This document shows, in pieces, positions 24,001-26,014 of a stretch of DNA of 64,000 nt (positions are counted from its first letter, which is position 1; every line of letters starts with the position of its first letter). The stretch is taken from the NCBI RefSeq assembly GCF_030013595.1, contig NZ_CP122768.1. One strand, written 5' to 3'. Source of the DNA: Escherichia coli (GTDB lineage: Bacteria > Pseudomonadota > Gammaproteobacteria > Enterobacterales > Enterobacteriaceae). Made by a program: the position numbers.

Positions 24001-26014
24001 CCCAGCCATGATGATTCCCACGCTGCAATGCGCTATCGACTGCCTGCTCCAGTTGTACTTTGACGTTGCGCGACACTTTGCGCATCCAGAAAACCATCCA
24101 GGTAAGGATCACCACGGCGATCACCGCCACGATACCTTCAAACAGTTCCTGTTCTTTTTGCGGAAATTCGCCGGTGGTTTCGTTAATGAAGATACCCAAG
24201 CCCAGGCACAACGCAGCGGCAAGCAACACGCCAATCCACATCACACCAATCCATCGGCCTCGCTGGGTACGCTTAAGATAGCTGGCAATCAAACTGACAA
24301 TCAGCGCGGCTTCAAGTCCTTCGCGCAACATAATGAGAAATGGAACAAACATGCCACCCACCCTTAAACGTTTTTCTGAGTCAATCTATGCAAAGAAAAG
24401 TAAATCGCAGTGATAGCGATTATCATTACGGCAAAGAAAAATACAAGCGGAATGTTTATAAAATGATGTTGGAATGTAAACAAAGAGAGGTAATGGCAGG
24501 GGATATAAACGATTATTCCAGGTACAAAGATGGGATTGTTTACAACGAGCCATGTGTTCTTGCCAGATGCCGCGTAAACGCCTTATCCAGCCGACAAAAC
24601 TGTCCAGACTCAATGCATCAGAGCTTCCATGTAAAACTGATAAGCGGGTGTATCAAGCAATTTCGTCCATCCGCGATTATCAAATCTAACTTTTTGCCCG
24701 GAACATAATAACAGCTCGGGTGTTGGTGGCGTCAAAGTCGCTGAAGCGTTCCCCGAAGGCCAGGGCAGCCCACATGGATGTGGGCTGAGGGCGCGTCTTA
24801 CAGGACATTACCTCGCGCCCGACCCGGTAGCCGAAGGGGATAAGCTGAAGGTACCGCGCAGCGGCGATTTTGTTCGCCAGAGCCCGGGGTGCAGGGGGTG
24901 GCGGCGATTGGCCGCCCCCTGCACCATTCAATTTATATGGCGAGGCACATTAAGGGAGCGCAACCCGCTGCTGAAGCCAAACAAAACCGCCGCAGGCTAA
25001 GTCCCTTAGCTTTCCTGCAACCGTGACGGCGGAGCCGAATGATAGTGCGCATCGGCCTCGGCAAAGCGTTTTTGCATCGCCGCTGACGGCGCTTTACCCA
25101 GCAAACTAAACACTACAATCCCGATACTACCAAAGATAAAGCCCGGAATAATTTCGTACAGACCCAGCCAGCCGAACTGCTTCCAGACGATAACCGTCAG
25201 CGCACCGATGATCATCCCCGCCAGCGCACCGTTGCGCGTCATGCGTGACCACATCACCGAGAACAGCACCACCGGACCAAACGCTGCGCCAAAGCCTGCC
25301 CACGCGTAGCTCACTAAGCCCAGCACGCGGTTTTCCGGGTTTGCCGCCAGCGCAATCGCCACCAGCGCCACCACCAGCACCATCACTCGCCCTACCCACA
25401 CCAGCTCTTTCTGGCTGGCCTGTTTACGCAGAAACGCTTTATATAAATCTTCGGTAATCGCACTGGAACATACCAGCAGCTGGCAGCTTAACGTTGACAT
25501 TACCGCTGCCAGAATCGCCGACAGCAGAATCCCGGCAATCCACGGGTTAAACAGAATTTGCGCCAGTTCGACAAACACGCGTTCAGCGTTCTGGTTTACC
25601 GCACCTGCTACCGCCGGGTGCTCATTAAAGTAAGCGATACCAAAGAAGCCGACAGCCACCGCCCCTGCCAGGCAGAGGATCATCCAGGTCATACTGATAC
25701 GACGCGCATGGACAATGCTGTGGTGAGAATCCGCCGCCATAAAACGCGCCAGGATGTGCGGCTGCCCGAAGTAACCCAGCCCCCAGCCCATCAGCGAGAT
25801 AATGGCAACAAAGTTCAGCCCTTTGAGCATATCGACGTTTTCGATGCTCTTTTGTTTGATCACTTCCAGCGAGTCGCCAAACCCACCAACGCTAATGATT
25901 ACGATAACCGGCGTCAGGATCAGGGCAAAAATCATCAGGCTGGCCTGTACAGTGTCAGTCCAGCTCACTGCAAGGAAGCCACCAATAAAGGTGTAAAGGA
26001 TCGTCGCCGCAGCG

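What the first reader, a model, noticed from the sequence alone, without database searches (positions are those of the whole stretch)
24720..24950. GC-rich multi-hairpin element between putP 3' end and efeU promoter
An approx 230-bp block much more GC-rich than flanking intergenic DNA contains at least three strong inverted repeats (GCCCACAT-GGA-TGTGGGC; GGGCGCG...CGCGCCC; CAGGGGGTGGCGGC-GATTG-GCCGCCCCCTG). It is not a canonical REP, and I do not recognise it as a named element. It could be a dispersed repeat family member, a structured 3'-UTR-derived RNA of putP, or an insulator between putP and the Fur-regulated efeU promoter. The 81-aa ORF predicted across it looks spurious (Pro/Gly-rich, low complexity).
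Basis: seen in the sequence. Interest (0 to 1): 0.45.

Follow-up and report, generated by a model that had tools for sequence, protein, structure and literature searches.

The report
Decayed TwoAYGGAY-type RNA repeat copy
The GC-rich hairpin block between putP and efeU is a partly decayed copy of a roughly 270-base repeat that sits at 3 to 9 sites in E. coli genomes. Its core belongs to a known but functionally untested RNA family (TwoAYGGAY) whose two hairpin loops look like binding sites for the global regulator CsrA.

Summary
Window 24712-24964 is GC-rich (0.60-0.65), holds the three stated inverted repeats, and folds far better than shuffled sequence.

It is not a unique element. Related copies occur in 5425 of 5426 complete E. 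coli genomes, at a median of 3 and up to 9 places each. None is annotated.

Other sites are aqpZ-lysO, dusC-yohP, asmA-yegH and alx-sstT.

Its 5' two-thirds is homologous to the Rfam family TwoAYGGAY (RF01731). Kluyvera copies of the same repeat pass Rfam's threshold (54.2 and 44.6 bits against 43). K-12 copies score about 31 bits and this copy 23.8.

A 24-sequence alignment supports a multi-stem structure: 98.5% of cells are paired and 15 pairs show compensatory changes. The structured strand is the window + strand, antisense to putP and efeU.

The hairpin tops (ACAUGGAUGU; family ACAGGGAUGU) match the CsrA SELEX consensus. CsrA binding is therefore the best-supported mechanism for the family. 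It is inferred, not shown.

This copy is damaged. Hairpin 2 is mutated and an 11-nt deletion removes one strand of the 3' stem. The locus is dispensable: 48% of genomes carry a 123-bp core deletion and about 34% lack a K-12-length spacer, typically a short one without the element.

No promoter was found. The only terminator-like site is the 24888-24925 hairpin.

The parts
24712..24964 (+). Whole repeat unit, one copy of the dispersed Enterobacteriaceae family. It runs from CAGCTCGGGTG to GGGAGCGCAAC.
   Evidence: Boundaries come from alignments of 24-28 copies at different loci. BLAST finds it in 5425 of 5426 E. coli genomes, median 3 places.
24686..24711 (+). AT-rich stretch just 5' of the unit. 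It has a loosely shared pattern (TGTTTT...TTnA..TAnAAA) at other loci and may be a 5' extension of the unit.
   Evidence: Seen by eye in the flank alignment. No sigma-70 consensus promoter was found here or at two K-12 copies.
24730..24872 (+). Domain homologous to Rfam TwoAYGGAY (RF01731): a long closing stem P1, an inner stem and two hairpins.
   Evidence: cmscan gives 23.8 bits, E = 0.095, aligned to model positions 1-168 on the + strand. It is the best of 4227 families but below the gathering score of 43. Kluyvera orthologues score 54.2 and 44.6 bits.
24766..24787 (+). Hairpin 1, a 9-10 bp stem with top ACAUGGAUGU (loop AUGGAU). Intact.
   Evidence: The top matches the CsrA SELEX consensus RUACARGGAUGU in the ACA and GGAUGU parts (PMC4347634).
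24789..24820 (+). Hairpin 2. The 7-bp GC stem GGGCGCG/CGCGCCC is intact. The top is degenerate: ACAGGACAU here against ACAGGGAUGU or ACAUGGAUGU in the family. GGA lies at 24803-24805.
   Evidence: The C-A mismatch at alignment pair 93-100 occurs only in the window copy.
24888..24925 (+). GC-rich hairpin with 15-nt arms. Relative to the family consensus, 11 nt (CCCTGCGCGCT) are deleted just 3' of the loop.
   Evidence: The scan flags it as terminator-like only in this copy, because of the downstream ATTCAATTTA.
24950..24964 (+). 3' tail TTAAGGGAGCGCAAC. In other copies GGAGCGC pairs with an upstream GCGCUCC. Here that partner is lost to the 11-nt deletion.
   Evidence: The stem covaries to CGUUCAC/GUGAACG in subfamily 2. 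Its pairs appear as gaps in the window copy.
24686..24931 (-). 81-aa ORF across the element. Spurious.
   Evidence: One search lists the ORF. It has no Pfam or NCBIfam match. Frame-breaking indels separate the copies.

Best explanation
Window 24712-24964 is one copy of a roughly 270-280-nt dispersed intergenic repeat of Enterobacteriaceae. The 5' two-thirds of the repeat is a TwoAYGGAY-class structured RNA. The RNA sense strand is the window + strand, antisense to putP and efeU.

Shown: the repeat nature, homology to TwoAYGGAY, a covariation-supported multi-stem fold, the strand asymmetry, and the decay of this copy.

Inferred: the family RNA presents two hairpin loops of the type ACA(N)GGAUGU, about 25-28 nt apart. 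These are the preferred ligand of a CsrA dimer. The family most likely works by binding CsrA, either titrating it or bringing CsrA control to whatever transcript reads through the element. I put this at about 0.35 for the family.

This particular copy is most likely inert or nearly so (about 0.7). Hairpin 2 is mutated and the 3' stem is lost. No promoter is detectable. The core is deleted or the element absent in about 83% of E. coli genomes.
For: Repeat: it is found in 5425 of 5426 genomes, at 1-9 places each, with no annotation. Other sites are aqpZ-lysO, dusC-yohP, asmA-yegH and alx-sstT.

Homology: the window copy is 80-82% identical over 246-265 nt to Kluyvera copies. Those copies pass the TwoAYGGAY threshold over the full model. 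The score falls from 54.2 and 44.6 bits in Kluyvera, to 30.9 and 30.6 in K-12-type copies, to 23.8 here.

Structure: 71 pairs, 98.5% of cells paired, 15 pairs with changes on both sides. No shuffle of 500 reaches this, and slid controls give 0-4 such pairs.

Strand: there are 118 G-U cells on the + strand against 9 that would be G-U on the - strand. Pairing is 98.5% read on + and 92.1% read on -. GGA occurs 4-9 times on + and 1-4 times on -, and two GGAs always sit in loops.

CsrA: the SELEX consensus is RUACARGGAUGU with GGA in a hairpin loop. TwoAYGGAY has already been predicted to bind CsrA (PMC4333381).

Decay: 12 of 71 consensus pairs are broken or gapped here, against 0-2 in the E57, VG1046 and K-12 copies. 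The alleles at this locus are: full 945 genomes, K-12-type 123-bp deletion about 2616, and 1865 with no long match, the sampled ones carrying a short spacer.
Against: No CsrA binding or transcript was shown here. No consensus promoter was found at this locus or at two K-12 copies. The only terminator-like site is the 24888-24925 hairpin, specific to this copy.

Orientation relative to neighbouring genes varies. An RNA role would therefore depend on read-through transcription or on unrecognised promoters.

Gene-level tables of a K-12 CsrA CLIP-seq study list no CsrA peak for dusC or ybjE. That is weak evidence. Whether reads from these near-identical copies were usable there is not known.

Only two GGA loops are constant. 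CsrB and CsrC have many more, by my recollection.

Hairpin 1 is invariant in my alignment partly because non-E. coli loci were found by an exact search for it.
Confidence: 0.6

Rival explanations
1. A selfish or relic dispersed repeat with no present RNA function. Its hairpins were selected as single-stranded DNA or cruciform structures recognised by a transposase or recombinase, as in REP/RAYT or IS200/IS605-type systems. On this view the resemblance to CsrA sites is incidental.
For: It is multi-copy and intergenic, and it occurs in either orientation. The same spacer carries it in opposite orientations in different lineages: aqpZ-lysO and dusC-yohP. Related cores form 316-bp tandem arrays in Edaphovirga. 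No promoter was found. Covariation cannot tell RNA from single-stranded DNA.
Against: There are no terminal inverted repeats or target-site duplications. No transposase was seen at the ORF-scanned loci. There are no phage copies, and the plasmid hits are mostly megabase-sized, non-mobilizable records. The many G-U pairs on one strand fit RNA better than DNA. The loop motif is conserved across phyla within an established RNA family.
Confidence: 0.2
2. A cis-acting barrier at the 3' end of putP. Read on the - strand as part of the putP transcript, the stable hairpins protect the mRNA 3' end or impede read-through into the efeU promoter, much as REP elements do.
For: The short allele has a canonical hairpin plus U-run terminator right after putP. 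The long allele lacks it. The - strand also folds strongly, at -115.6 kcal/mol with z = -4.2. The K-12 deletion keeps the GC-rich hairpin.
Against: No hairpin on the - strand is followed by a U-run. The conserved structure and G-U pairs favour the + strand. The same element lies in all orientations relative to its neighbours at other loci. The core is deleted in 48% of genomes.
Confidence: 0.15
3. A small protein-coding gene, the 81-aa ORF at 24686..24931 on the - strand.
For: An ORF of 81 aa exists. Some RefSeq genomes annotate a hypothetical protein near this spot.
Against: It has no Pfam or NCBIfam match. Indels of 1 and 11 nt between copies break the frame. Substitutions are compensatory for base pairs, not codon-patterned. 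Most genomes annotate nothing here.
Confidence: 0.01

Closest known systems
TwoAYGGAY RNA motif (Rfam RF01731, clan CL00106; Weinberg et al. 2010, PMC2864571)
   Same: Both have two adjacent hairpins with GGA-containing terminal loops, the second nested in an extra stem after a UGAG linker, all closed by a long P1 stem. Both occur in gamma-proteobacteria and are multi-copy within a genome; Psychromonas is an example in the original alignment. Kluyvera copies of this same repeat pass the Rfam threshold.
   Different: E. coli copies fall below threshold, at 31 bits for K-12-type copies and 23.8 bits here. Loop 2 is AGGGAU in most copies and CAGGAC here, not AYGGAY. The Enterobacteriaceae unit carries an extra 3' domain of about 100 nt that the Rfam model does not cover: a GC-rich hairpin plus a stem that pairs GCGCUCC with a Shine-Dalgarno-like GGAGCGC.
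CsrB/CsrC and Rsm-type CsrA-sequestering sRNAs
   Same: Hairpins whose loops carry A(N)GGA and whose tops match the CsrA SELEX consensus RUACARGGAUGU. TwoAYGGAY has been predicted to be a CsrA-binding RNA.
   Different: Only two constant GGA loops, enough for one CsrA dimer. By my recollection CsrB has about 22 such motifs and CsrC about 13. No promoter was detected, and a terminator-like site only in this copy. The scaffold is GC-rich. The element is dispersed in several copies and both orientations. No binding data exist.
REP/BIME, ERIC and other enterobacterial intergenic repeats
   Same: They are intergenic, palindromic and multi-copy, occur in either orientation, and show presence/absence polymorphism between strains.
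   Different: The sequence is unrelated. The only REP-like match is a separate element at 24556-24592. This unit is much longer (about 270-280 nt), has a low copy number (3-9), and forms a complex multi-stem fold with covariation and strand asymmetry.

Membership tests
TwoAYGGAY RNA (RF01731) | Score at or above Rfam's gathering threshold of 43 bits | tested here: not met
   The window copy scores 23.8 bits (E = 0.095 in a 191-nt search) and gives no hit in an 801-nt search. K-12-type copies score 30.9 and 30.6 bits. Kluyvera orthologues score 54.2 and 44.6 bits and pass.
TwoAYGGAY RNA (RF01731) | Sequence homology to members that pass the threshold | tested here: met
   blastn gives 81.9% identity over 265 nt to L068 and 80.1% over 246 nt to L054, with E = 1e-65 and 1e-53.
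TwoAYGGAY RNA (RF01731) | First terminal loop with AYGGAY | tested here: met
   The loop is AUGGAU at 24774-24779, on a 9-10 bp stem.
TwoAYGGAY RNA (RF01731) | Second terminal loop with AYGGAY | tested here: not met
   The window has ACAGGACAU, with no AY before GGA and a broken C-G pair. Most family copies have AGGGAU. Kluyvera L054 and MAG L043 have AUGGAU.
TwoAYGGAY RNA (RF01731) | Long P1 stem closing the two hairpins | tested here: met
   Helices 1-4 of the consensus (alignment columns 13-45 with 130-175) form in the window copy and carry 6 pairs with compensatory changes.
CsrA-binding sRNA (Csr/Rsm type) | GGA in hairpin loops matching the SELEX consensus RUACARGGAUGU | tested here: met
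   Hairpin 1 carries ACAUGGAUGU. The family hairpin 2, UUACAGGGAUGU, matches 11 of 12 positions, but the window hairpin 2 is degraded.
CsrA-binding sRNA (Csr/Rsm type) | Many GGA sites per RNA, more than two in loops | tested here: not met
   The window + strand has 4 GGAs, of which only 2 lie in predicted loops.
CsrA-binding sRNA (Csr/Rsm type) | Own promoter and intrinsic terminator | tested here: not met
   No consensus promoter was found at three loci. A terminator-like site exists only in the window copy, created by its deletion.
CsrA-binding sRNA (Csr/Rsm type) | Demonstrated CsrA binding or titration | not testable with these tools
   Gene-level CLIP-seq tables list no peak for dusC or ybjE. 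Whether reads from these repeat copies were usable in that study is not known.
REP/BIME | Match to the REP consensus (Rfam naRNA4 model as proxy) | tested here: not met
   There is no match inside 24712-24964. A separate REP-like match lies at 24556-24592 on the - strand, 27.2 bits.
MITE / non-autonomous transposon | Terminal inverted repeats and target-site duplication | tested here: not met
   The ends CCGCACGG... and ...GGAGCGCAAC are not complementary, and no duplicated flank appears in 10 loci. Low-stringency BLAST found no remnant of a second copy.

The most novel reading that the evidence does not exclude
TwoAYGGAY-type units, including the Escherichia copies, could be portable CsrA-binding cassettes about 300 nt long. 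They would spread between intergenic sites, sometimes as tandem arrays as in Edaphovirga. Each would either titrate CsrA collectively, as a distributed third class of Csr decoy in E. coli, or place whatever transcript reads through them under CsrA control.
Probability: 0.15. Interest if true: 0.7.

Novelty: new member of a known kind. Interest (0 to 1): 0.35.

Why it matters
TwoAYGGAY has been an orphan RNA family since 2010. It was predicted in 2015 to bind CsrA, and I found no experimental follow-up in the searched literature. This analysis shows that E. coli carries unannotated relatives. K-12 has two well-preserved copies, at NC_000913.3 915,016-915,292 (+) and 2,229,111-2,229,388 (-). That makes the CsrA hypothesis testable in the best-equipped model organism.

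There is also a practical point. The near-identical copies probably explain recurrent intermediate-frequency "mutations" called at ybjE/aqpZ and yohP/dusC in resequencing studies.

For this window itself the finding is ordinary. It is a decaying, dispensable copy.

Tried and rejected
- **Older named repeats (RSA, boxC, ERIC, BIME).** Literature searches gave nothing usable. A systematic survey of stem-loop families lists only PU-BIME, ERIC, BoxC and Eco-1 for E. coli.
- **The element's sequence in papers.** A full-text search for the hairpin sequences found none.
- **E. coli in the original TwoAYGGAY alignment.** I searched the Weinberg supplement for the E. coli hairpin and for NC_000913. Neither was found, but the stored file is truncated, so this is inconclusive.
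- **Mobile-element signatures.** There are no terminal inverted repeats or target-site duplications. The two orientation alleles at aqpZ-lysO are not a simple inversion, because their flanks differ. No remnant of a second inverted copy was found.
- **Independent transcription unit.** No consensus promoter was found at three loci.
- **Carriage on phages or true plasmids.** There are no phage hits, and most plasmid hits are megabase-sized or non-mobilizable records.
- **Protein-coding reading.** Rejected.
- **The 18-mer hairpin search in GTDB genomes.** It also returned chance coding matches (for example a WPTWMWA peptide motif). I excluded these by inspection.

Full report
**Setting.** The window is E. 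coli, 100% identical to strain KE55 over the region. putP (25006..26514) and efeU (23522..24361) both lie on the - strand. A 644-bp spacer separates them.

**Observation.**
- GC content is 0.60-0.65 across 24700-24949. On the efeU side it is 0.35-0.49. The putP side is about as GC-rich as the element.
- The 255-nt block folds far better than dinucleotide shuffles on both strands. The + strand gives -129.5 kcal/mol with z = -5.1. The - strand gives -115.6 kcal/mol with z = -4.2.
- The 81-aa ORF matches no protein family. Copies differ by indels that break its frame.

**It is a dispersed repeat.**
- BLAST against 5,426 complete E. coli genomes finds the element in 5,425. The median is 3 places per genome and the maximum is 8-9. 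Nothing is annotated under any listed match.
- Other sites are dusC-yohP, aqpZ-lysO, asmA-yegH (a more divergent subfamily) and alx-sstT.
- Alignment of copies from different loci places the shared unit from CCGCACGG... to ...GGAGCGCAAC. In the window this is 24712-24964. A loosely similar AT-rich stretch lies just upstream.
- An exact-match scan of one genome per GTDB species for hairpin 1, followed by local BLAST, found the family in several taxa. These are E. albertii, E. whittamii, other Escherichia species, Kluyvera, Pseudocitrobacter and an Enterobacteriaceae MAG. Klebsiella and Citrobacter records also carry it.

**Relation to a known family.** A first Rfam scan of 801 nt around the element found nothing relevant. 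Scans of related loci did.
- The Kluyvera copies of this same repeat match TwoAYGGAY (RF01731) over the full model. They score 54.2 and 44.6 bits against a gathering score of 43.
- K-12-type E. coli copies score 30.9 and 30.6 bits.
- The window copy, searched alone with laxer filters, scores 23.8 bits on the + strand. This is the best of 4,227 families.
- The window copy is 80-82% identical to the Kluyvera copies over about 250 nt. Homology to the family is therefore secure, even though this copy fails the curated threshold.
- Weinberg et al. described TwoAYGGAY in 2010 from human gut metagenomes, Clostridiales and gamma-proteobacteria. It has two terminal AYGGAY loops and an often long P1 stem. 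Their alignment includes several copies from one Psychromonas genome.
- Gardner and Eldai (2015) predicted that it binds CsrA and called validation work in progress. I found no experimental follow-up in the searched literature.

**Structure and strand.**
- RNAalifold on 24 distinct copies predicts 71 pairs. Of these, 15 have changes on both sides that keep the pair.
- On that structure 98.5% of cells are standard pairs. No shuffle of 500 reaches the observed covariation, and sliding the partners by 1-3 columns leaves 0-4 compensatory pairs.
- The fold has the TwoAYGGAY domain, then a GC-rich hairpin, then a 3' stem. The 3' stem pairs GCGCUCC with a Shine-Dalgarno-like GGAGCGC, and it covaries to CGUUCAC/GUGAACG in the asmA-yegH subfamily.
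- The structured strand is the window + strand. There are 118 G-U cells on + and only 9 cells that would be G-U on the other strand. Pairing is 98.5% read on + and 92.1% read on -. GGA is enriched on + (4-9 against 1-4), and two GGAs always lie in loops.
- Caveat: hairpin 1 never varies in my alignment. This is partly because non-E. coli loci were found by an exact search for it.

**Likely mechanism (inferred).**
- The hairpin tops are ACAUGGAUGU and, in most copies, UUACAGGGAUGU. They match the CsrA SELEX consensus RUACARGGAUGU, in which ACA and GGA are invariant and GGA sits in a hairpin loop.
- By my count on the sequence the two GGAs are about 25-28 nt apart. From my own knowledge, that spacing suits bridging by one CsrA dimer.
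- The best-supported mechanism for the family is therefore CsrA binding.

Several points count against an autonomous sRNA gene.
- No consensus promoter was found at this locus or at two K-12 copies. The only terminator-like site is the 24888-24925 hairpin of this copy.
- Orientation relative to neighbouring genes varies.
- Gene-level CLIP-seq tables list no CsrA peak for dusC or ybjE. Whether reads from these repeat copies were usable in that study is not known, so this is weak evidence.

**State of this copy.** The window copy is the most damaged one sampled.
- Hairpin 2 reads ACAGGACAU, with one G lost and the C-G pair broken.
- An 11-nt deletion removes the 5' strand of the 3' stem.
- In all, 12 of 71 consensus pairs are broken or gapped, against 0-2 in the E57, VG1046 and K-12 copies.

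The locus itself is dispensable.

| Allele at putP-efeU | Genomes | Share |
|---|---|---|
| Full element | 945 | 17% |
| K-12-type 123-bp deletion removing both GGA hairpins | about 2,616 | 48% |
| No long match; sampled members (e.g. BH100) have a 219-bp spacer with a canonical putP terminator and no element | about 1,865 | 34% |

**Rivals.**
- A DNA-level or selfish repeat is not excluded. The same spacer holds the element in opposite orientations in different lineages, at aqpZ-lysO and at dusC-yohP. I cannot explain this. The flanks differ, so it is not a simple inversion, and no remnants of a second copy exist. There are no terminal inverted repeats, target-site duplications, phage copies or convincing plasmid copies.
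- A cis role as a putP 3'-end barrier is possible, because the long allele lacks the canonical terminator. The core deletion in half of all strains argues that such a role is not needed.

**Verdict.** This is a real feature and a member of a known but functionally orphan RNA family. It is unannotated in E. coli and decayed at this locus. Interest in the window itself is modest. The family-level lead, that CsrA binding can now be tested in K-12, is the useful outcome.

Noticed in passing
L004/L007 versus L005/L025 (aqpZ-lysO); L003/L008 versus L087 (dusC-yohP): The same intergenic spacer holds the repeat in opposite orientations in different Escherichia lineages. In both cases the window-like subfamily lies in one orientation and the K-12-like subfamily in the other. 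The flanks inside the spacer differ, so this is allelic replacement rather than a simple inversion. It remains unexplained.
   Followed up: partly
L068 4104-4167 (+), L019 2218-2281 (+), L054 9360-9423 (-), L043 1594-1657 (-): In Kluyvera, Pseudocitrobacter and an Enterobacteriaceae MAG, a second and different TwoAYGGAY core lies about 85 nt upstream of the repeat, on the opposite strand. It scores 49.2 bits in Kluyvera L068 and Pseudocitrobacter L019, and 37-38 bits in L054 and L043. The pair lies downstream of xthA in L068.
   Followed up: partly
L055-L065 (Edaphovirga cremea), for example L058 3053-3968: At least 11 loci carry the same 18-nt hairpin inside a different repeat. Its core scores 42 bits on TwoAYGGAY, just under threshold. 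At L058, units of 316 bp form a tandem array of 2.9 copies with 98% matches.
   Followed up: partly
K-12 NC_000913.3 915,226 and 2,229,177 / 2,229,205 (L007 4227; L008 4178 and 4206): Intermediate-frequency "mutations" reported at ybjE/aqpZ and yohP/dusC in a resequencing study (PMC11510482) fall inside the two full K-12 copies of this repeat. They are probably cross-mapping or gene conversion between copies.
   Followed up: partly
window 24556-24592 (-): A single REP-like element lies between the repeat and the efeU promoter region. It is a partial match to Rfam naRNA4, 27.2 bits, E = 0.011.
   Followed up: no
window 24403-24421: A short palindrome, AATCGCTATCACTGCGATT, is flagged as terminator-like on the - strand about 50 nt upstream of efeU. 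It overlaps GATAGCGATTATCATTA, which looks like a Fur-box-type sequence from memory. Not tested.
   Followed up: no
window 23522-24361 (-): efeU is an intact ORF here (279 aa as listed; annotated as a CDS in KE55). In K-12 MG1655 it is annotated as a pseudogene.
   Followed up: no
window 15689-15758 (-), 19678-19871 (+), 53916-54338 (-), 43156-43234 (+): The Rfam gathering-level matches elsewhere in the window are RNA-OUT (IS10-type antisense RNA), Ysr251, a cspA-type thermoregulator leader and a REP (naRNA4).
   Followed up: no
L078 901-1066, L079, L049 (Lachnospiraceae MAGs); L034-L037 (Thiotrichaceae MAG); L010, L016, L033, L083, L084 (Shewanella): The identical 18-nt hairpin GCCCACATGGATGTGGGC recurs in non-coding repeats of unrelated bacteria. 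Lachnospiraceae L078 is a bona fide TwoAYGGAY hit at 72.3 bits. The Shewanella (L010) and Thiotrichaceae (L034) loci tested give only sub-threshold TwoAYGGAY matches of 31-33 bits, and in L034 the match lies beside the hairpin rather than on it.
   Followed up: partly
3' end of the repeat at several loci, for example L007 about 4290-4320 and L087 about 6350-6430: In about half of the loci an AUG or GUG follows the Shine-Dalgarno-like GGAGCGCAAC by 4-12 nt and opens a tiny, non-conserved ORF of 2-26 codons. The window copy has none.
   Followed up: no
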